Below the pieces are notes generated by a model. The model was not told the DNA's origin. It worked only from the letters and a program-made list of their open reading frames with translations, and did not search any database. A stretch of DNA of 64,000 nucleotides, taken from the NCBI RefSeq assembly GCF_006345805.1, contig NC_043005.1, positions 109,554,001 through 109,618,000 on the forward strand, in the 5' to 3' direction. Each line of letters opens with the position of its first letter. The stretch's first letter is position 1. A program made the translations under genes and the position numbers. This DNA is from Octopus sinensis. Its lineage: Eukaryota. Below are positions 1,346 through 60,720 of the stretch, in pieces.

Positions 1346-1553
1346 CGTTTGTGTGTCTGTGTTTATCCCCACCAGCATTGCTTGACAACCAATGCTGGTG
1401 TGTTTACAACTTAGCGGTTCAGCAAAAGAGGCCAATAAAATAAGTACTAGGCTTACAAAGAATAAGTCTTGTGGTCGATTTGCTCGACTAAAGGTGGCGC
1501 TCCAGCATGGCCGCAGTCAAATGACTGAAACAAGTAAAAAAGTAAAAAAAAAA
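1088..1553 (+). mobile_element. tRNA-derived SINE, family A, full length
   Basis: Head GGAGTGGCTGTGTGGTAAG...GGTTCATTCCCA, central (TA)/(TG) tract, 3' GACTGAAACAAGTAAAA tail; more than 15 related copies in the window. Confidence 0.9.
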
Positions 1554-1839
1554 GCATGCAGATGTGTACTCACATGAGATAAGTTTGCATGTGTGTAAAT
1601 GTGTGTGTGTGGGCATTTATAAATGTGTTCATACATGTGTATATATGTATACGTATAAATATGTGTATACACACATATTTGTGTGTGTGTGTGCATGTAT
1701 GAGTATTTATCATGACATGCAAACATAGATACTACCAAAAACTTACCAGCTGGTCGTGTGGGCGTGTTTGTGTATGCATGCTTGTATGAATGTATGTATA
1801 TATACATTTATACACACACACACTAACAACCACACATAC

Positions 1840-2100
1840 ACACAAACACACACACACATCAATATATACATACACACACAAATACATAGTCACAAACGCA
1901 CATACACACACACACACACACATCAATATATACATACACACACAAATACATAGTCACAAACGCAAATACACACACTCACAAACACACACACACACCACAT
2001 ATCAATATATACATACACACACAAATACATAGTCACAAACGCACATACACACACTCACAAACACACACACACACATCAATATATACATACACACACACAC
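1840..2100. repeat. Microsatellite-derived minisatellite, ~4 units of ~60-70 bp
   Basis: ATCAATATATACATACACACAC recurs four times and AAATACATAGTCACAAACGCA three times. Confidence 0.8.
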
Positions 2101-3283
2101 ACAAGCTGGTGATCTTTTTTTTTATAGAGATCCACCATCAAATAAATTTATGCCAGTGATTTTAGGGTCCAGTAACAAGATGCCCACTCAATTTATTTCC
2201 TTCATTTCAGGTCCACCACGGTCATCAGTGACCGAGATCACAAAGTCTGTGATGCATTGAACCGAAAGTGACCAAAAACCCATAAAATTGCAGACTCTCT
2301 CCCTCTCTCTCCTCCTCACCCTCTCTTTGTGTCTTAGTTTCTCTCTCTACATCTCTCTATCAGTTTTTCCCTCTTCAAGTTCTCATGTTCTCTTTCTCTC
2401 TTTCTTTCTTTCTTTTCTTGTTTTTATTATGTGTTTTTTACAATTCTTTCCCTTGCTTTTGGTTTGTATGTCTGTAAGAATCATATATATACATGCATAT
2501 ATATATATATTTACATACATACATACATATATATATATACATATATATATATATATGCATACATATATATATATATATATATGCATACATATATATATAT
2601 GCATGCATACATATATACATATATACATACATACATACATATATACATATATACATACATATATATATATATATATATGTGTATATATATATATTTATAT
2701 ATGTGTATGTATGTATGTATGCATATATATAAACATATATAGTACAAACATAAACACACTCCTACACACACATATACATATATGTGTGTGTGTGTACACA
2801 TATGCATATATATGTATGTGTGTGTATATAAACATATATATATAGATAGATATACATGCAAACATGCATACATACATATATACATACATACATATATATA
2901 TACATACATACATACATACATGCAGAAAGAGGGCGGGCAAGAGAATGAGAGATGATTTATAAAATTTTATACCATCGATGTTATTGTTTTTCGTGATTTG
3001 CAATTTTTTTCTGTCTTTCATTGTTTGTTTTTCATTATCATATCATTTCACAGCCTCCCCCCCATCATCACCTCCCTCATCTCTCACCCCCAATCCCCAC
3101 CCTACCAATATCTCTTATCTTTTACCACCCACAATCTTCCCTCATCACTCAGTTTCACCATCTTCCTACCATCCTTGCACCATTCATAAGCCATCCACTA
3201 ACCATCCCACACCATTCATCCTCATCTTTTACATTTCATCATCAACCTCGTTCATTTCCATACTATGTACTGAAAACAAAATG

Positions 3284-3314
<31 letters not shown>

Positions 3315-3949
3315 TACATATAAAATGCCATGTACATATATAAATATTTATACATATTTGTGTGCATGTGTGTGTCTGTGTGTTGATATTTATATATTTA
3401 TGTATTAATGTTTGTATGTATCTATGTACGTATGTATGCATGCATGTATGTATGTATGTATATGTATGTGTATGTATGTATGTATGTATGTATGTACACA
3501 TACACATATATACATTTGGTTGGGGCAACTAAGGTTCATGATACGGTCTCATGACCTCCCAGAAATGACAGCCAAATGTCCCTCAAGTGAAGACCTTATT
3601 GCTTTAGATGAAAAGTGGATGTTCTTTATAACCTAGTCATACTCACCTCTAGAAAGTCAAAATGGTCACACTTAGATTACCTCTAATCATAGTGTTGTTC
3701 TTATCAAGGTTGAGTTGTGAACTAAACAACAATCAAAACTTAATCCTACAAAATTCAGATCCTCTCTTCAAGCATTTGGGCCAGAGAAAATTTGTAAAAT
3801 GGTTTATTATCAAATATCTCAATACTTTAAAGCAGCATTTCTCAAACAATCTGATGTGGCGTACTGGTAGTTTTTTTTTTTTTTTTCCAATGTGCCAGGG
3901 ACCGGTAATATTTCTTAATAATATTAATTTATACTGGAAGCAATATATA

Positions 3950-4260
3950 TAGTTACGGAGATGTACTTGCATAGCAAGTGACCTAATCTGAGATTGTGTG
4001 CTGGAACGAAAACAATTGCAGCGTGGAAGGTGTTTATAAGCCATTTAAGAAACACACAAAAACCGTTAGATTTAAATTTAATTTGTCAAAATATTTTCTT
4101 CGCTTTGAGACCACGACCTGTTCACAGAGTGTTGTCAGTGAACAGGTCGTGGTCTCAAAGAGACAAAAATATTTTGACAAATTAAATTTAAATGTTGAAG
4201 TGAATCTAACGGTTTTTGTGTGTTTCTTAAATGGCTTATAAACACCTTCCACGCTGCAAT
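3950..4260. mobile_element. Palindromic PLE-terminus-like element nested in the hAT MITE
   Basis: Inverted arms 4015-4125 / 4138-4260 with a 12-nt loop; flanked by short (TA)n; carries a hammerhead-like motif. Confidence 0.7.
4132..4180 (+). ncRNA. Minimal type I hammerhead ribozyme-like motif, G3-C8 core variant (decayed)
   Basis: UUGUCA-GUGAACA-G-GUCGU(GGUCUCAAA)GAGAC-AAAA-AUAU-UU-UGACAA; the mirror arm supplies GCGAA-GAAA, so the two-arm consensus is an intact fold. Confidence 0.55.
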
Positions 4261-4671
4261 ATATATAATGGATATAATAAAAGTTGACAATTTTTTAAAT
4301 CTTATATTTATTTTGTAAACAAAGAATACAATATTACATAAGCATTCTATAAGCATTTTATAAGGTTTCTTTTTTTTCTGGAAACTTGCCGTATACAGGC
4401 AGCTGATGGCTTGCAGACTGGCACAGGCCCATGAGCCATCACTTTGAGTAGCACTGCTTTAAAGTACAATCTAAAACAGAACACCAAATTTTATTTCTCA
4501 CCTGTAGATTAAAACTTCTAATTTCATAGTTGGGAGTTTAGTAAGTCAATTCGATGTAGGGGCAAAACAATTGTCATATCTGCAGTAGATGTATGTTTTT
4601 CTGTGTAAGAAGTTTTTTATCCCATGTACTCTGACTTGCTATTTATTGCTACATATGCATTTGAGAAACTT

Positions 4672-4711
<40 letters not shown>

Positions 4712-4714
4712 TGC

Positions 4715-4872
4715 ACAGGAGTGGCTGTGTGGTAAGGAGCTTGCATCTTAATGACATGGTTCTGGGTTCAATTCCACCGTGTGGCACCTTCGGCAAGTAT
4801 TTTCTACTATAGCCTCAGGCCGACCAAAGCTTGTGAGTGGATTTGGCAGACAGAAACTGAAAGAAACCTGCC

Positions 4873-4875
<3 letters not shown>
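4715..4875 (+). mobile_element. SINE family A, 5' half
   Basis: Family A head through AAACTGAAAGAAACC, ending in (TA)n. Confidence 0.85.
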
Positions 4876-4919
<44 letters not shown>

Positions 4920-5169
4920 AATATATTGAGGGAATATTATTCCAAACTTACAGGGAAAAATTCAATTTAGAAATACTAAATCAAATTTCTCAAAATATAA
5001 TATATTTATAAATTAGAAAAAAAACATCTTTTATCAATTCAAAATGAAAAATTAAATTACACCAGCTAGAAAATTACATATAATAGAAATATTAAATATA
5101 AGATAAAAAATAATATACCAATGATTAAGTAATGTGCAAAATAATAAATAAAATGTATATATTTTGTAG

Positions 5170-5272
5170 AATAACGACACGTGTTTCATAGCTGTATTTA
5201 AGAAATGATTATAGTAAAGATATTAGTAGTAGTAGTAAAATCACTTCAATATAGCCACTTATCAGGTTTTAT
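5170..5272 (-). ncRNA. Type I hammerhead-like motif with extended stem II
   Basis: Minus strand AAAAC-CUGAUAA-GUGGCUAUAUUGAAGUGAUU...AAUCAUUUCUUAAAUACAGCUAU-GAAA-CACGU-GUC-GUU; palindromic ACACGUGU and GUC site; G8 is A. Confidence 0.55.
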
Positions 5273-5310
5273 TAATTATTTTTATTTATTATATTTATTA
5301 TATATAAAAA

Positions 5311-5764
5311 ATCAAATCAAACCAAATCAAAATAGATGAACATCAATGGAATTTGTATCTTTGTGATACCAGTGCTGGTGGCACATAAGAAAACCATCCG
5401 AACGTGGCTGTAGCCAGTATCGCATCAACTGGCCTCCGTGCTGTGGGCACGTAACAAACACCATCCGATCGTGGCTGTTCGCCAGCCTCGTCTGGCACCT
5501 GTGTCGGTGGCACATAAAAAACACCATCCGAGCATGGCCGTTCGCCAGCCTCGTCTGGCACCTGTGTCGGTGGCACATAAAATCACCCACTACACTCTCG
5601 GAGTGGTTGGCATTAGGAAGGGCATCCAGCTGTAGAAACACTGCCAGATCTGACTGGCCTGGTGCAGCCTTTGGGCTCCCCAGATCCCAGTTGAACCGTC
5701 CAACCCATGCTAGCATGGAAAGCGGACGTTAAACGATGATGATGATGATGATGATGATGATGAT
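5311..5764 (+). mobile_element. RTE-type LINE 3' UTR fragment with (GAT)n tail
   Basis: ~62-bp internal subrepeats, GGTTGGCATTAGGAAGGGCATCCAGCTGTAGAAAC block, ends GGACGTTAAAC(GAT)n. Confidence 0.75.
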
Positions 5765-5864
5765 AAAATATATACGTTTTATTTATTATTTTGCACATTA
5801 CTTAATTATCGGTATATTATTTTTTAATCTTATATTTAATATTTCTATTATATGTAATTTTCTA

Positions 5865-6225
5865 GATGGTGTTGTGGGGTGCTGGACAGAAGGACCTGTT
5901 AAGTTGCTCAGGGTCTTGTTTAGTCCAGATCTTCAAGTGAGCAAGAACAGACAGGGTAGCCAGTTTCACCCAGAAACAGGCTGAGAGGAAGCTGTCCCTG
6001 AAAGTTTGGGCAGAGGTGGCAATTGCGTACATCATGTCTGTCATATACTACTGCCTGATTGTTGTCCTTTGTCCCACTTCGTGGATGAATGGGCTGGTAT
6101 GCTTGCTCTTCCATTTCCTGTGGAGGGGACAGATATGGCTTGTCAGATGGTCCATTTGCTGCCAGCACCTGTTGTGTGGAGGACTGGGCATGCTTTGGCT
6201 GAGGATGTGCAGACATGTGCTGAGG
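5865..6225 (+). pseudogene. L1/Tx1-clade LINE ORF2 fragment (post-RT region)
   Basis: Frameshifted translation RKLSLKVWAEVAIAYIMSVIYY...LFHFLWRG...VRWSICC...GGLGM resembles the Tx1/L1 LSLxGR...FLW...GGLG pattern. Confidence 0.65.
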
Positions 6226-6876
6226 CTAGTGACTGAGACCTTTGGAAATATGCTGTGCTTGAAAAGACTCAGCAGGCCAAGTGAGACCATAATCCGTGGC
6301 CTATGCCAGGAGTGTAACCAGCCCACTTATGCATACCTTTCCTTCATTGCACTCTAAACTATGCTTTGTGAAGACCTGTTGAGGCAAGTGAAATCAAAAT
6401 CCAAATCAAATTCGATGACTGGCATCCATGCTAGTGGAGCGCTAAGAGCACCATCCGAGAAACATCGTTGCTAGCACAGCTGACTGGCTTCCTTGCTGGT
6501 GACGCATAAAAGCACCATTAAAGCATGATCGTTACCAGCGTTACCTTACTGGCACTTGTGCTAGTGGCACGTGAAAAAAAACATTTGAGCAAAGTCGTTG
6601 CCAGTGCCACTGGACTGGCACCTGTGCAAGTGGCACATAAAAAACACCATTTGAGTGTGGTTGTTGTCACTATCGTCTGACTGGCCCTCACGCCAGTAGT
6701 ACATAAAAGCACCCACTACACTCTCGGAGTGGTTGGCGTTAGGAAGGGCATCCAGCTGTAGAAAATCTGCCTGATTAGATTGGAGCCTGGTGCAGCCATC
6801 TGGTTCGCCAGTCCTCAGTCAAGTCATCCAACCCATGCTAGCATGGAAAGCGGATGTTAAACAGTGATGATGATGA
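6226..6876 (+). mobile_element. RTE LINE 3' end (last codons plus 3' UTR)
   Basis: DLWKYAVLEKTQQAK* followed by the same 3' UTR module and (GAT)n tail. Confidence 0.75.
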
Positions 6877-6879
6877 TTA

Positions 6880-6931
<52 letters not shown>

Positions 6932-7920
6932 CATTATTCTCATGGTGGTGGTGGTGGTGGTAAATTGGTTCAACAGCCTACAATTTCTTTTTATCAGCTA
7001 CCTTAGATAATGATGTACCAATAAGGGTGCCCTCTATACAGTTCCTAAGTTTTCTAGAAATAACAGCCAAATTACTCTTCAAATCAAATCTTAATGTCTT
7101 AAGAAATTGAAAGAACTGGATAAATAATTTGCTGGATAAACAAGGTAGGTTTAGTTATAGTTATCCTTAGTTAGAATACGATGGAAGAATAGCACGTGAT
7201 GTGTTGGTCACAAGCAGAATAATTTTGGCCATAGGTATATTTGAACAGAGCTAAACTTGGGCGAAGCAACAACAACAACAACAATGAAGATATTGAATGA
7301 TTGATTCATTGATTCGTGATACATATTAATCATAGACTTTTCATATAAAGTAAACAATAGTCCTGAGTATATAATGAATATTGGAGCTATATGTGTATAC
7401 ATGAATGTATATAGACATATATCTGTGTGTATGTGTGAGTGTAAGCCTTAGCATACATATGTGTGTGTATACATACGCACACACACATATATATGTACAT
7501 GCATATATATATATATATATGTGTGTGTGTATGTGTGTGTATGTGTGTGTGTGTATTTATGTGTGTGTGTGTATATATATATATGTGTGTGTGTATATAT
7601 ATATGTGTATATATATATATATGTGTGTGTATATATATATATATATGTGTGTATATATATATGTGTGTGTATATATATATATGTATATATGTATATATAT
7701 ATGTATATATATGTATATATATATATGTATATATATGTATATATGTATATATATATGTATATATATGTATATATATATATATATGTATGTATGTATATAT
7801 GTATGTATGTATAAATGTATATGTACATATATGTATATATGTATATGTACATATATGTATATATGTATATATATATATATATATATACATACACATATAT
7901 ATTTATATATATGCATATAT

Positions 7921-8168
7921 GTATCAATGCAGGCATGTGCGTGCGTGCATGCATGCCGTGTTTTGTTTATTCATTTAGCAAAAATAAATACGCATCAAAA
8001 CCACGTTTTATCCATTGTACGTCCCTTCCCCCCGGCCGCCGGACCCCACAGACACACTTCACAATTTCTGATTATGTTGGAACTGTTAGCGTCCATCAAT
8101 TTTATCCAGTGATTCTTAAAAGCGAATTTCATGTTTTCTTTCTCGCAGATAATGGTCAGCAAGAGATT

Positions 8169-8218
<50 letters not shown>

Positions 8219-8512
8219 CAGCCACATTTCATCCACATGATTGTATTCAGTGGATCAAGTTATGACCTGAACAATCTAAAGGATAATTGCTAGTCCAGGC
8301 TGGCAGAATGACAGAATATCTAGTTCACTATTGTTTGAACAAGAACCTTTTTCAATAAATAGACTTCGTATTTTGGCTTTAGAAAATTGGTTCGCTGCAT
8401 TAAAAGAAAAATATTAAAATATATATATGTTATATATACATACTCATATATATATGTGTGTGTGCATATATATATATGTGTGTGTATATATATATGTATA
8501 TGTATATATATG

Positions 8513-8547
<35 letters not shown>

Positions 8548-9111
8548 GTATATATATATATTATATATGTATGTATATATATATATATATGTGTGTGTAT
8601 ATATATATGTGTGTGTATATATATATATTATATGTATATATATGTGTATATATATGTATATATATATATGTATATATAGTATATATATATATATAATATA
8701 TGTATATATATGTATATATATATATATGTATGTATGTATATATGTATGTATGTATATATGTATATGTATATATATATAATATATATGTATATATATGTAT
8801 ATATGTAAATATATATATACACATATATATATGTATATATATATATTATATATATGCATATATGTATCAATGCAGGCATGTGCGTGCGTGCATGCATGCC
8901 GTGTTTTGTTTATTCATTTAGCAAAAATAAATACGCATCAAAACCACGTTTTATCCATTGTACGTCCCTTCCCCCCGGCCGCCGGACCCCACAGACACAC
9001 TTCACAATTTCTGATTATGTTGGAACTGTTAGCGTCCATCAATTTTATCCAGTGATTCTTAAAAGCGAATTTCATGTTTTCTTTCTCGCAGATAATGGTC
9101 AGCAAGAGATT

Positions 9112-9161
<50 letters not shown>

Positions 9162-9380
9162 CAGCCACATTTCATCCACATGATTGTATTCAGTGGATCA
9201 AGTTATGACCTGAACAATCTAAAGGATAATTGCTAGTCCAGGCTGGCAGAATGACAGAATATCTAGTTCACTATTGTTTGAACAAGAACCTTTTTCAATA
9301 AATAGACTTCGTATTTTGGCTTTAGAAAATTGGTTCGCTGCATTAAAAGAAAAATATTAAAATATATATGTTATATATAC
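7921..9380. repeat. Tandem duplication, period 943 bp
   Basis: Unique ~500-bp core starting GTATCAATGCAGGC at 7921 and again at 8864, separated by (TA)-type microsatellite. Confidence 0.9.
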
Positions 9381-9603
9381 ATACTCATATATATATGTGT
9401 GTGTGCATATATATATATGTGTGTGTATATATATATGTATATGTATATATATGTATATATATTATATATATATATGTATATATATATATATGTATATATA
9501 TATTATATATATGTATGTATATATATATATATGTATATATATATGTGTATATATATATATATATGCATATATATATGTATATATATATATGTGTGTATAT
9601 ATA

Positions 9604-9670
<67 letters not shown>

Positions 9671-10244
9671 CATATATATATACATATACATATATGTATG
9701 TGTGTGTATGTATATATATATAATATACATATATATATGCATGTGTATACATATCTACATACATTCATATATTTATATGTTTATGTATATGTATGCATGT
9801 ATGTATGTATGGTTGTATGTATGTATGTATACTAATAAATATATATATGTGTATGCATGCAATATTCATGCACATTGTATATACACAGATACAAGTGTGT
9901 ATATGAGTGCATGAATGGAGGCATGGATGGATGGATGGATGGATGGTTAAGAAGCTTGCTTTGAAATCATGAAGCAATAGGTTCAGTCCCATTGCACAGC
10001 TCCTTTGACAAGTCTCCTTTACTTGAGACTGAGTTCAATCCAACCCTTGCAACAATTAGGGAGTTTACAGAAATTATATGAAAGCCCTTCAAGTGGACAA
10101 TGTCTGCAATTCAAAGGTCCAGCCTTGTTACAAACTGTGTTCTTCGGATTGCATCTCAGAACTACATTAAAGGTATACATGTCTGTGGAATACTCAGCTA
10201 CCCATATTCTAATTTAATAAATAGCTATTTCAGTTCATTATGCA

Positions 10245-10364
10245 GCATAGTATGGCTCTTTGGTCAGAAGTTCACTTCCTAACTGCATGGTTCCAAGTTC
10301 AGTCCCGGGTCACACCTTTGCCAAGTGTGTTCTACTATAGCCCCAGGCCCAGTAAAGCCTCGTG
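10245..10364 (+). mobile_element. SINE family A 5' part, truncated at the palindrome boundary
   Basis: Degenerate head through AAAGCCTCGTG, then abrupt switch at 10365. Confidence 0.65.
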
Positions 10365-10618
10365 AAGGCGACACTGGTAACGATCACACTCGAATGGTGT
10401 CTTTTATGTGCCACTGGCACGGAAGCCGGTTAACCGCTCTGTCAATGATCACACTCATATGGTGCTCTTCGCACCCGACTAGCATAGACATCAGTCATCG
10501 AATTTGATTTTGATTTTGAGGTATGATAAAAGGATTCTCAAGATTATTTGTACCAATTTGTTTTCAAATACAGCTTTTCTTTTGTGAGCTATGCATGACC
10601 TCATAAATCGGATGCACC

Positions 10619-10675
<57 letters not shown>

Positions 10676-11393
10676 ATATTGCACTAGGCATCATTCAGTC
10701 TCTTATTTCTTTACTTCCCACAAGGGGCTAAACATAGAGGGGACAAACAAGTACAGACATAGGTATTAAGTCGATTACATCGACTTAGTGTTTCACTAGT
10801 ACTTAATTTATCGACCCCGAAAGGATGGACGGCAAAGTCGACCTCGGCGGAATATGAACTCAGAACATAACAGCAGACGAAATACCACTAAGCATTTCGC
10901 CCAACGTACTAACATTTCTGCCAGCTTGCTGCCTTCAGTTTCTGCCAGAAACTGAAGGCAGTAAGCTGGCAGAAATGTTAGTACGTTGGGCGAAATGCTT
11001 AGTGGTATTTCGTCTGCTGTTATGTTCTGAGTTCATATTCCGCCGAGGTCGACTTTGCCGTCCATCCTTTCGGGGTCGATAAATTAAGTACTAGTGAAAC
11101 ACTAAGTCGATGTAATCGACTTAATACCTATGTCTGTACTTGTTTGTCCCCTCTATGTTTAGCCCCTTGTGAGTAGTAAAGAAATAGGTATTTCGTCTGC
11201 CGTTATGTTCTGAGTTCAAATTCCACTTTGCCATTCAGCCTTTCAGGATTGACAAATTAAGTACCAGTTATGCACTGGGGTCAATGTAATTGACTTAATC
11301 CCTTTGTCTGTCCTTGTTTGTCCCCTCTATGTTTAGCCCCTTGTGGGAAGTAAAGAAATAAGAGACTGAATGATGCCTAGTGCAATATTGTAT

Positions 11394-11451
<58 letters not shown>

Positions 11452-11705
11452 GGTGCATCCGATTTATGAGGTCATGCATAGCTCACAAAAGAAAAGCTGT
11501 ATTTGAAAACAAATTGGTACAAATAATCTTGAGAATCCTTTTATCATACCTCAAAATCAAAATCAAATTCGATGACTGATGACTATGCTAGTCGGGTGCG
11601 AAGAGCACCATATGAGTATGATCATTGACAGAGCGGTTAACCGGCTTCCGTGCCAGTGGCACATAAAAGACACCATTCGAGTGTGATCGTTACCAGTGTC
11701 GCCTT
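10365..11705. repeat. Large fold-back inverted duplication centred at 10945
   Basis: TTTCTG-C-CAGAAA centre; arms contain an RTE-UTR piece, ~170 bp unique DNA, (CA)n/(TG)n and SINE C; identical-start ORFs 10491-10694(-) and 11370-11579(+). Confidence 0.95.
10955..11360 (+). mobile_element. SINE family C, partially dimeric (mirror monomer at 10705-10935, -)
   Basis: AGCTGGCAGAAATGTTAG head, GAGTTCA B-box-like motif, AAAGAAATA tail; 3' ~174 bp repeated. Confidence 0.85.
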
Positions 11706-12101
11706 ACTGGCACTCGAGCCCCATGCTAGTAGGGTGTTAAGAGCACCATCCGAGCATGATCGTTGCCAGAGCGACTATGTGGCCTCCGTGCCAGTGGCAT
11801 GTAAAAGGCACCATTCGAGCGTGATTGTTATCAGCATAGCCTTAATGGCACCTGTGCTGGTGGCATGTGTAAAAGATTCGAGCGAGGTCGTTACCAGTAC
11901 CACCTGACTGGCATGTAAAAAGCACCCACTACACTCTCGGAGTGGTTGGCGTTAGGAAGAGCATCCAGCAGTAGAAACTCTGCCAGATCAAGATTGAAGC
12001 CTGGTGCACCCATCTGGTTCGCCAGCCCTCAGTCAAATCGTCCAACCCATGCTAGTATGGAAGGCGAACATTAAACGATGATGATGATGATGATGATGAT
12101 G
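11554..12101 (+). mobile_element. RTE-type 3' UTR fragment with (GAT)n tail
   Basis: Same module as 6390-6876. Confidence 0.8.
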
Positions 12102-12102
12102 A

Positions 12103-13080
12103 CTGTTAGCATCAATGGCTGCTTCAATACGATATTGGAAGCCTTGACATGCTGGAATTAGATGACCCTTTTTAATTTTGGTCATAGGGCTGGTTATTGG
12201 GAACTGGGAGATTGTATGGTCTTTTTCGACAATACCTCATATGTAATAGTCCAGTGGACTGAGGTCTGGTGAACTAAAAGGCCATGTGTTTGGGAGGACA
12301 GGATCATGGTGACTGACGTGCATCTTCACTTGCCTTATGTGACAGAGCAGAGTCTTGTTGGAATATGTATGGTCATCTGGTGCATATTCTATCTAGGGCC
12401 TCGCAGTTTTCTCCAACCCTTCTGTGTAGACAGCAGCATCGACTCTTCAGCCCTGTGAAAGAAAGTCAGGAGATATAACATCTATCTCATTGCTGACAAT
12501 TCCCAGAGACATCACAGTTGCTTGGAACTTAAAATGCACGAATGTTGGACCCTCAATCAGGCTTCTGCATAATCCATCTGTTATTCCTTCAGTTTATTTG
12601 TTGGTCCTGATTGAAGCTTTCCAAATCAGAGGAAAACCAAAATATTCCAGCCCCTCTGTGTTTTAGCTTGTTTAGCATGTACCTCGCATTAAATCAAACA
12701 GTTCCCTCTTGTCACATCTGACATAAACTGACCCCTCAGCAGCACATACAGTTTGTGCTAAATGTCCTCATGCACAGCTTTTCTGATGGTGCATTCTGAA
12801 ACTTTGAGGTCCTTTGTAATAATTCTGATTGACTTTCTGGGGTTTTTATCTATTACGACTTGAACTTTTTGTAAAAAAATTTTTTGTTCTGGTGATATTA
12901 GGGCCCTGTGCATGCATTTTGCATTGTACTGCTGAGCTCCTTTCAGACTTTGACAATGGAAGATTGGGCAACTTTCAGGAAGCAAGCTATCTCACTTTCA
13001 TTGTCTTTCAGTTTTTAGGCAACAATTACAGCATCCCTTTTCATTCGCTGAGTCAACATGATGTCTGACGTTATTTATCT
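12103..13080 (-). pseudogene. Decayed Tc1/mariner-superfamily (maT-like) transposase
   Basis: Minus strand fragments KVQVVIDKNPRKSIR..KDLKVSECTIRKAVHED, PYIFQQDSALSHKA and WPFSSPDLSPLDYY; many stops and frameshifts. Confidence 0.8.
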
Positions 13081-19179: not shown

Positions 19180-19400
19180 ATAGTTAATCCAAACATGAAA
19201 ACACAAAGAGAAAACACAACAATGTGAGGACGTGGAACAAGTATAGCGTTATTGGACGCTCAGGAAAGGAAAGAAAGAAGAAGGGTTTAACGTTTTGAGC
19301 GGAGCTCTTCGTCAGAAACATAGGAAAAAGAAAGATTCAAGGAAGGGAAGATGGAGGAAAAAAATCACCAACGATACATATGCGGTCACATTTTGAAAAT
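19180..19400 (-). mobile_element. PLE-terminus-like short element with hammerhead motif (family F)
   Basis: Between (TA)n tracts; homologous to 52975-53155 and 60482-60720; minus strand GUUU-CUGACGA-A-GAGC(UCC)GCUC-AAAA-CG-UU-AAAC at 19285-19319. Confidence 0.7.
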
Positions 19401-46502: not shown

Positions 46503-46655
46503 TCTACGTTCTGAGTTCAAATTCTGCTGTGGTCAACTTTCCCTTTCATCCTTTTGGGGTCGATAAATTAAGTATTAGTTGCGTACTGAGGTCAATGTAA
46601 TTGACTGGCCCCCTCCCCCAAAATTTCAGGCCTTGTGCCTATAATAGAAAGGATT
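46503..46655 (+). mobile_element. SINE family C variant (3' part)
   Basis: CGTTCTGAGTTCAAATTC...GGGGTCGATAAATTAAGTA. Confidence 0.7.
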
Positions 46656-46689
46656 ATTATTATTGTCATTATAATTTCTTTTTATCTCA

Positions 46690-46960
46690 GGTTTTGTTGG
46701 AGCTCTTGGAGTCTTTTATGAGACTTGCTACTTACAGTCCATGGTACCATGCTATTCGTTCTTTCCTAATCATTCTGGTCATGCCAAGGAGGGCAAAACT
46801 GTTTTAACAATTCTACTGGATACTCAATTCGAATTTCCTTTATATTCCACTTGATGCCTTCTGATACTGTTTCCAAGGACCCAACAGTAATTGGCACTAT
46901 CTTCCCCTTCTTCATTTTCCATAGACAGGCTATTTCATACTTAATTGGGTTGTATTTATC
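46690..46960 (-). pseudogene. RLE-type (R4-like) non-LTR retrotransposon C-terminal fragment
   Basis: KYNPIKYEIACLWKMKKGKIVPITVGSLETV resembles the KY..L..EI..LW....IVP..VG.LG motif. Confidence 0.6.
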
Positions 46961-47067
46961 TTTTTTTTTTACTATTATTATTATTGTATAAAGAATCGTG
47001 GGTAACACCAGAACAATGCAAAATAAATGCAAGAAAACAAATATATGAATTAATGTAGACTTACCTT

Positions 47068-47110
47068 GTATTCAATATTTCGGGGTTATGACCCCATTTT
47101 CAAGAAATTA
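47068..47110 (-). ncRNA. Minimal type I hammerhead-like motif, U3-A8 variant
   Basis: UUC-UUGAAAA-U-GGGGU(CAUA)ACCCC-GAAA-UA-UU-GAA. Confidence 0.6.
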
Positions 47111-47119
47111 ATGCATGTT

Positions 47120-47445
47120 GCCAATGTGCATCTTTTCAAGGACTTGACATACAGATAGTGCACACTGGCCCTTCCCTGAGAAAAGCTCTGTTCAAGAACA
47201 ACACCTCTCACTACTCTGAGGAGTGCACATTATCGAACTGCCCCATCAATGACCCTGAATTGTGCCAGAGGACCTATGTTGTATATGAGATCATCTGTGG
47301 CAGATATGGTGCATCCTACATAGGAAGCACAACGAGAAAACTGCATATATGCATTAAGGAACACATGCAGATGCAGGCAGACGCTTCCGTGAAGAAACAT
47401 CTACAGAAATGCCAGATCCAGGAATTTACAGAGCACATCAAGGCA
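47120..47445 (+). pseudogene. Penelope GIY-YIG endonuclease fragment
   Basis: CPINDPELCQRTYVVYEIICGRYGASYIGSTTRKLHICIKEH...SVKKHLQKC. Confidence 0.85.
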
Positions 47446-47493
47446 ACACACACACAAACACACACACACACACACATATATATATATTATAAA

Positions 47494-47641
47494 GGTATTT
47501 TTATGTAAGCTTAAAGCTTATAGCAATCAGTGTGCACTGACTAAGGAAAATAGTCTAATAACAGGTCTATTTTCCTTGGTCATTTGCCATAAGCTTTTTC
47601 CTTGGTGGTCACCATAAGCTTTAAGCTCATCTAAAAACACC
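47494..47641. repeat. Imperfect palindromic MITE-like element
   Basis: GGTATTTTTATGTAAGCTTAAAGCTTAT / ATAAGCTTTAAGCTCATCTAAAAACACC, with an inner AAGGAAAATAG / CTATTTTCCTT hairpin. Confidence 0.65.
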
Positions 47642-47722
47642 ATTATTATTATTTACAGGTTTGTAAAATACGGTGCTGTATAACAAAACCATTCACACTG
47701 AAAGCATATATTTATACATATA

Positions 47723-60481: not shown

Positions 60482-60720
60482 ATAGTTAATCCAAACATTG
60501 AACAAGCAAGAAAAAACAACAATGTGAGGACGTGGAATCAGTACAGTGTTATTGGATGCTCAGGAAAGAAGAAAAAAGAAACATGATTTCACGTTTCGAG
60601 CGGGGCTCTTCATCAGAAATATAGAAAAGATCCAAAGAAGGGAAGACAGAAAGAAATTTGCCAACGATACACACATACACAAGCGGTCAACATTTAAAAT
60701 GACCAGAAGGGAATGGGTGA
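60482..60720 (-). mobile_element. Family F PLE-terminus-like element
   Basis: Abuts (TA)n; homologous to 19180-19400. Confidence 0.7.
60586..60620 (-). ncRNA. Minimal hammerhead motif with canonical core
   Basis: AUUU-CUGAUGA-A-GAGC(CCC)GCUC-GAAA-CG-UG-AAAU; position 17 is G, so probably non-cleaving. Confidence 0.65.

What the first reader, a model, noticed from the sequence alone, without database searches (positions are those of the whole stretch)
46980..47445. U3-A8 hammerhead directly joined, inverted, to a Penelope GIY-YIG domain
Seen: minus-strand UUGAAAA core with a compensatory U3-A8 pair, perfect GGGGU/ACCCC stem II, GAAA, palindrome AAUAUU, a UU cleavage position and a UUC/GAA stem I, immediately 5' of a plus-strand GIY-YIG fragment. 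This is the only motif here with no obvious inactivating lesion, and it physically ties the ribozyme set to PLEs (an inverted partial pLTR at the 5' end is an established PLE structure).
Basis: partly seen in the sequence, partly recalled or inferred. Interest (0 to 1): 0.7.

Follow-up and report, generated by a model that had tools for sequence, protein, structure and literature searches.

The report
Penelope hammerhead in inverted retrotransposon end
This is a real minimal hammerhead-ribozyme motif of an already described type (U3-A8 core), sitting in the flipped end-repeat of a broken Penelope-like retrotransposon copy in what is probably an octopus genome; motif variant and flipped layout are both ordinary for these elements, and self-cleavage here is untested and likely weak.

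Summary
Observation confirmed. The minus strand at 47106-47071 holds a complete type I minimal hammerhead motif: U3-A8 core, extra base at 9.1, 5-bp stem II, palindromic stem III stub, U17, 3-bp stem I. A strict descriptor found it once and never in 1500 shuffled windows. A model built from relatives alone scores it E~1e-6. It lies in a ~150-nt inverted repeat fragment that meets, head to head at 47137/47138, a 5'-truncated, decayed linker + GIY-YIG piece of a Penelope-like element (PLE). The family link is supported: one database protein and contig joints show this endonuclease followed by this motif in the same sense. Of 44 related loci, 23 carry such a motif behind the endonuclease, and one has this same inverted layout. 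Nothing here is new in kind: U3-A8 PLE hammerheads (even the same core heptamer), U17, the stub and inverted 5' pLTRs are all published. The window's two other hammerhead-like motifs belong to a different family, so this junction does not tie them to PLEs. The copy has no dimer partner nearby and its endonuclease is broken, so it is probably inert. One loose end: a perfect splice donor 9 nt after the cut site.

The parts
47071..47106 (-). Type I minimal hammerhead motif, U3-A8 core, U9.1, 5-bp stem II, 2-nt palindromic stub, predicted cut between 47074 and 47073
46985..47137 (-). Inverted partial pLTR: end of the 3' UTR, hammerhead, ~65-nt leader and probably the first few decayed codons of the ORF; left edge approximate, ending in an (ATT)n run
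   Evidence: (depth roughly 3-55 times that of the EN piece at 47028-47108; loose ends at 47030 and 47129)
47137..47445 (+). 5'-truncated, decayed PLE ORF piece: end of RT-EN linker, C-x4-C-x7-C linker (47224-47265), GIY-YIG N-terminal half. Cys stands where relatives have an invariant Arg (47350); the C-terminal part with the conserved Glu is missing
47130..47138 (.). Head-to-head junction. Family contigs begin to align to the EN piece at 47138; 27 contigs of one run leave the pLTR piece at 47129; about 8 nt between are of unclear origin
47059..47066 (-). Consensus-like splice donor (AG|GTAAGT), intron would start at 47064, 9 nt after the predicted cut; use not shown
47006..47008 (-). GTG at +66 from the cut, where relatives have the ORF's ATG (+53 to +83); likely a decayed start codon (inferred)
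46971..46985 (.). (ATT)n run at the left edge, likely the AT-rich insertion target

Best explanation
This is the remnant of a Penelope-like retrotransposon, most likely one insertion, in which a flipped copy of the element's end repeat carrying a U3-A8 minimal hammerhead motif abuts a 5'-truncated, decayed linker/GIY-YIG piece, and the motif would cleave only weakly and as a dimer, so this lone copy is likely inert. Shown: the motif, its orientation, the junction, the family link and the lesions of the endonuclease. Inferred: (1) in the intact family the order is RT-linker-EN, short 3' UTR, hammerhead, ~65-nt leader, ORF start; (2) one integration made a 5'-truncated direct copy plus an inverted terminal piece, the usual head-to-head PLE product; (3) the direct copy later lost its 3' end at the (CA)n(TA)n tract; (4) in tandem transcripts of active copies two motifs would pair through the palindromic stub, with U3-A8 replacing the C3-G8 tertiary pair, and cut after U17, probably needing protein help.
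For: Motif far above chance (0 hits in 1500 shuffles; E~1e-6 with a model built without it). Coding homology stops exactly at the junction: 92 of 151 tblastn hits start at 47137 or 47140, and no other PLE protein hit lies in the window. Family link: P0001, the nearest tree neighbour of this EN, runs on out of frame into a stretch matching the minus-strand translation across stem II to stem I (score 45; 1 of 20000 shuffles as high; best of 450 protein-frame pairs). Three opposite-strand contig joints (47107/47367, 47111/47415, 47122/47416) place EN and pLTR in one sense in other copies; two of them are forced by side length. Relatives: 24 model hits in 23 of 44 loci, 21 in sense 66-449 nt behind the EN match, and 3 on the other strand at head-to-head inversions. 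L031 has an inverted 231-nt copy of its own 3' pLTR next to its 5'-truncated ORF. Pair counts on 22 distinct relatives: 94% of cells paired, 3-8 pair C-G 17, U-A 2, A-U 1, G-C 1, unpaired 1; U17 in 13 of 22. Literature.
Against: No full-length member of this very family was retrieved (no genome held; exact motif absent from metagenome contigs). The joints rest on 1 contig per run at 80% likeness, where the tool warns of joints from other repeats, and the letters between the sides are not given. P0001's locus lacks the core heptamer (gap in the match), so it links stem II onward, not the U3-A8 core itself. No target-site duplication or direct 3' pLTR is present, so a single event is inferred. 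The pLTR segment is far more abundant than the EN segment, which also fits a non-autonomous derivative. Eight of the 24 hits trained the model and three more are near copies of one of them; the pair counts are on an alignment fitted to a model (the mis-structured first one). No cleavage data.
Confidence: 0.85

Rival explanations
1. Two events: a high-copy, non-autonomous hammerhead mini-element of the same PLE family landed next to an older endonuclease fragment.
For: Summed contig depth is 28,000-223,000 over 47028-47108 against about 1,500-13,000 over most of the EN piece. PLEs tend to insert next to earlier copies (review PMC6765202).
Against: The pLTR piece sits exactly at the 5' truncation point, no upstream ORF sequence lies on its far side, and the same layout occurs in L031 and in print.
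Confidence: 0.1
2. The motif belongs to a different PLE family than this GIY-YIG and the adjacency is accidental.
For: The window's other hammerheads are indeed of another family. No full-length element was seen.
Against: P0001 read-through and three strand-switch joints put this EN and this pLTR in one sense in other copies.
Confidence: 0.04
3. Chance look-alike in AT-rich DNA or in antisense coding sequence.
For: Folding z only -1.3; a relaxed descriptor gives 0.15 hits per shuffled window; no Rfam hammerhead among the 150 rows listed (244 not shown).
Against: Strict descriptor 0 of 1500 shuffles; E~1e-6; the plus strand there does not match the family's protein, which has other residues before the junction; high copy number.
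Confidence: 0.01

Closest known systems
Minimal hammerheads (min-HHR) in pLTRs of metazoan PLEs, incl. U3-A8 variant (Cervera and de la Pena 2014, PMC4209133)
   Same: Type I, extra base at 9.1, G10.1-C11.1, palindromic 15.2-16.2, short stem I, U-rich 5' and AU-rich 3' flank. Their S. mansoni(4) PLE motif has the same core heptamer and U17; their C. remanei and Latimeria(1) PLE motifs have the same UA stub with U17.
   Different: Host (probably an octopus; no Octopus row was found in the one supplement file that could be searched) and family sequence; combination U3-A8 + U9.1 + UA stub not among the rows I read; a splice donor just 3' of stem I, whereas the D. virilis intron ends at the 5' strand of helix I.
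Inverted 5'-truncated copy / inverted pLTR at PLE 5' ends (PMC8557442 Fig. 2 legend; PMC3846280)
   Same: Head-to-head junction, partial pLTR that includes the leader and probably the first codons, AT-rich target.
   Different: The direct copy here has lost its 3' pLTR; no TSD and no junction palindrome found.
Nematis-type C-terminal EN+ PLEs (PMC8557442, Fig. S2 alignment)
   Same: RT then short Cys linker then GIY-YIG in full-length relatives (~850 aa); linker length like the Nematis/PNL2_SM rows, not the long Neptune/Naiad one.
   Different: Linker reads C-x4-C-x7-C rather than a clear CX2-5CxxC; clade not tested with reference sequences.
PAc Poseidon element hammerhead of Anolis (PMC11167929)
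   Same: pLTR hammerhead; here A9-U9.1-G10.1 also spells ATG at the start of stem II.
   Different: In PAc the ORF begins at stem II; here that ATG meets a stop after 3 codons and relatives start the ORF 53-83 nt after the cut.

Membership tests
PLE minimal hammerhead (min-HHR) | Core with a Watson-Crick 3-8 pair (C3-G8 or U3-A8), U4, G5, A6, A9 | tested here: met
   U3-A8 covariation in relatives
PLE minimal hammerhead (min-HHR) | Extra nucleotide at 9.1, G10.1-C11.1, stem II, GAAA box | tested here: met
PLE minimal hammerhead (min-HHR) | Palindromic 15.2-16.2 stub, U16.1, H17, short stem I | tested here: met
   UA stub, U17, 3 bp
PLE minimal hammerhead (min-HHR) | Lies in the pLTR, in sense, behind the EN of its own family | tested here: met
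   indirect; relatives; no full-length copy of this family seen
PLE minimal hammerhead (min-HHR) | Self-cleavage (weak, as dimer) | not testable with these tools
   Energy model only; RNA run showed no pile-up of ends, uninformative
C-terminal EN+ PLE | RT followed by GIY-YIG in one ORF | tested here: met
   in relatives P0153, P0154, P0042, P0073; the window holds only linker + EN half
C-terminal EN+ PLE | Tandem/inverted pLTR structure | tested here: met
   inverted piece at the 5' truncation; direct 3' pLTR absent
C-terminal EN+ PLE | Intact EN active site in this copy | tested here: not met
   invariant Arg replaced, one Cys replaced, C-terminal Glu region missing: a decayed copy; does not bear on family origin
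Nematis clade | Short Cys linker before GIY-YIG | tested here: inconclusive
   compared by eye with Fig. S2 rows
Nematis clade | RT phylogeny with Nematis references | not tested
   no reference sequences at hand; tree has none
Non-LTR retrozyme | Tandem repeats each with a hammerhead | tested here: not met
   single copy; no second match to the segment in the window

The most novel reading that the evidence does not exclude
This PLE family has a small 5'-leader intron that starts 9 nt downstream of the ribozyme cut (donor at 47064, ending just before the start codon near 47008), the reverse of the D. virilis layout, so that self-cleavage and splicing would act on the same few bases and could gate expression of the element.
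Probability: 0.15. Interest if true: 0.35.

Novelty: new member of a known kind. Interest (0 to 1): 0.12.

Why it matters
Little by itself. It adds a probably cephalopod family to the known PLE hammerheads and one more independent natural U3-A8 core; the 3-8 pair also covaries across related elements. It does not open the standing question of what PLE hammerheads do in vivo, because this copy is decayed and alone. An active family member, or the possible intron just behind the cut site, would be the only routes to something more.

Tried and rejected
Rfam scan of the window: the 150 listed rows were microRNA-family matches, mostly on microsatellites; no hammerhead listed, 244 rows not shown, so uninformative. 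Word-indexed search for longer relatives: 0 of 20 candidates. No own genome held. Exact 33-nt motif in metagenome contigs: 0. Viral contigs: no relative. Model R1 and its uses had a mis-indexed structure string; their scores and pair counts are discarded. The model was rebuilt as R2. Alignment A4 from R1 was reused with the right structure; R2 returned the same 24 hits. First dimer evaluation was an impossible topology, redone. Idea that the ORF starts at the ATG within the ribozyme as in PAc: rejected (stop after 3 codons; relatives start later). Idea that the motif is antisense coding sequence: rejected. A KRCTLATC look-alike of the linker on the minus strand scored 35-36, within background (plus-strand best 38). 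Expression: no RNA holder listed. RNA run X22 is a 6% sample, mostly reads under 90% alike (433 of 599), so from other copies; it showed no pile-up of ends and no listed splice joint: no evidence either way. Lunse et al. (PMC5785218) is not held; only its title was seen. Pfam on 28 other long frames: nothing above cut-off.

Full report
Setting. The window is AT-rich, microsatellite-laden animal DNA. The two Octopus-named proteins near this endonuclease in the tree are from Octopus bimaculoides (P0002, P0003), so the host is probably an octopus; this is inferred, and no genome is held.

The motif. A strict descriptor (3-8 pair, base at 9.1, G-C closed stem II of at least 5 or at least 4 pairs, GAAA, palindromic stub, UH, stem I of at least 3) finds only this site and had 0 hits in 1500 shuffles of the window at either stem length. 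A relaxed one gave 9 hits in 60 shuffles. A covariance model from 8 related motifs, window excluded, ranks it first at 32.1 bits, E about 1e-6; the next hit is 17.4 bits. Folding alone does not single it out (z -1.3). The predicted monomer pairs U9.1 with G12, which would have to open for catalysis.

The coding piece. 47137-47445 reads without a stop as linker plus the first part of a GIY-YIG domain. phmmer found 342 relatives at E<=0.001; 7 of the 12 scanned carry both RVT_1 and GIY-YIG, and full-length relatives are about 850 aa. All 151 tblastn hits of the 150 proteins fall in 47092-47445, 92 of them starting at 47137 or 47140. Close relatives have different residues before that point, and contigs of other copies begin to align at 47138 while carrying 41-170 further letters. 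The copy is decayed: listed contigs differ at about 20-37 places per 190-250 nt. It has Cys where all other rows have Arg and Tyr where they have Cys (most laid contigs differ from the window at both places, 47350 and 47306), and it stops before the conserved Glu.

Do motif and endonuclease belong together? Three lines say yes. (1) P0001, the EN's nearest neighbour (62% over 91 columns), runs on past a frameshift into residues 169-185. These match the window's minus-strand translation across the 3' UTR and stem II to stem I (score 45, best of 450 comparisons, mean 21; 1 of 20000 shuffles as high). The match has a gap over the core heptamer, so it links the flanks, not U3-A8 itself. (2) Laying three contig sets gave strand-switch joints 47107/47367, 47111/47415 and 47122/47416 among the 15 rows shown (55 not shown). 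For the last two the side lengths force the order EN then pLTR in one sense. Each rests on one contig per run at 80% likeness. (3) In 44 related metagenome loci the model finds 24 motifs in 23 loci: 21 in sense, 66-449 nt behind the EN match, including 15 of the 19 loci with at least 500 nt of room (L012 and L022 left out of that count). The other 3 lie at head-to-head inversions; L031 has an 83% identical inverted copy of its own 3' repeat right against its 5'-truncated ORF, the layout seen here. Eight hits trained the model, and L031(+), L034, L035 are near copies of L019. On 22 distinct rows 94% of cells pair; the 3-8 pair is C-G 17, U-A 2, A-U 1, G-C 1, unpaired 1, and U17 occurs in 13 (alignment fitted to a model). 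So U3-A8 and U17 are natural states in this group, not lesions.

How it likely works. Inferred family layout: RT-linker-EN, short 3' UTR, hammerhead, leader, ORF start. In 8 of 19 relatives examined an ML..N-type start lies 53-83 nt after the cut; the window has GTG at +66. One integration likely left a truncated direct copy with an inverted terminal piece in an (ATT)n run; the direct copy now ends in (CA)n(TA)n with no second motif. The stub cannot close stem III alone, so cleavage would need two copies. The energy model gives the active cross-dimer -12.6 kcal/mol against -17.4 for two monomers and -21.7 for the best misfolded dimer, which fits weak, assisted cleavage. The nearest other motifs are 13.5 and 27.8 kb away and of another family. 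This copy is therefore likely inert. Family copies seem to share the core: among the 40 best-supported differences shown, only 47094 (stem II; rare in DNA contigs, the majority in the RNA reads) lies within the motif, but 197 rows were not shown and the laying favours like sequences.

What is known. PMC4209133 (parts 1-2 of 4 of the text, and part 2 of 3 of supplement file 2, read; file 1 could not be searched) reports U3-A8 in PLE hammerheads, about 1,300 hits in S. mansoni, the 9.1 base, G10.1-C11.1, the palindromic stub and low dimer activity. Its alignment has a PLE motif with the same core heptamer and U17. PMC3088659 (passages) reports natural U3-A8 and states such cores were already active in vitro. 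PMC8557442 and PMC3846280 (passages; three supplement look-ups for the former) describe inverted 5' copies and head-to-head junctions as frequent. PMC11167929 (passages) shows C3G/G8C partial rescue and protein-assisted cleavage in a PLE. PMC6765202 and PMC3884650: passages. bioRxiv 10.64898/2026.07.22.740005: part 1 of 5. A search for 'octopus' with 'hammerhead ribozyme' listed 4 papers, none by title or abstract about octopus ribozymes; the library lacks most subscription papers, and Lunse et al. on PLE hammerhead variants was not held, so a prior octopus record cannot be excluded.

The two other motifs the model ranks near the top (19283-19321, 60584-60622) have C3-G8 cores and a CG stub, share about 140 nt with each other, end at (TA)n, and do not match this repeat. 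They look like PLE repeats on their own anatomy but are not tied to this GIY-YIG.

Loose end. A consensus-like splice donor lies 9 nt after the predicted cut. The 8-mer occurs 3 times in the window's two strands, a pyrimidine-rich tract follows, and PLE 5'-UTR introns are known. Against: no AG before the putative start in this copy, only 1 of 19 relatives has a similar donor within 70 nt, and no RNA joint was listed.

Verdict. A real, well-formed, ordinary member of the PLE minimal hammerheads in an ordinary PLE insertion structure. Interest 0.12.

Noticed in passing
window 19200-19400 and 60500-60700, minus strand: Two copies of a second hammerhead-bearing repeat family (C3-G8 core, CG stub), alike over ~140 nt and ending at (TA)n; one has A for G12, the other G17.
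   Followed up: partly
window 46650-46955, minus strand: High-copy repeat ending in a (TAA)n tail; its translation resembles, from memory, the C-terminal restriction-like endonuclease of R4/Dong-type LINEs; no Pfam hit.
   Followed up: partly
window 47486-47649: MITE-like element with 36-nt, 83% complementary terminal arms and inner inverted repeats, right of the microsatellite that ends the PLE piece.
   Followed up: no
window 47133-47140 and 47097-47104: The same 8-mer occurs at the inversion junction and over stem I/core of the hammerhead; could be a templated patch at the junction or chance.
   Followed up: no
window 47097-47095, minus strand: A9-U9.1-G10.1 spell ATG as in the Anolis element, but a stop follows after 3 codons (possible tiny upstream ORF).
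   Followed up: partly
L009:1561-1600 and L021:1240-1281: Related PLE hammerheads with A3-U8 and G3-C8 at the 3-8 pair (both also differ at position 7 or nearby); natural examples of the rarer swaps if not decay.
   Followed up: no
P0002 (958 aa, Octopus bimaculoides): Annotated protein joins a PLE RT-thumb/GIY-YIG piece to a MAP7 domain; probably a gene-model artefact, untested.
   Followed up: no
L012 and L022: Head-to-head inversions inside the ORF, with two different ORF parts pointing away from the junction.
   Followed up: partly
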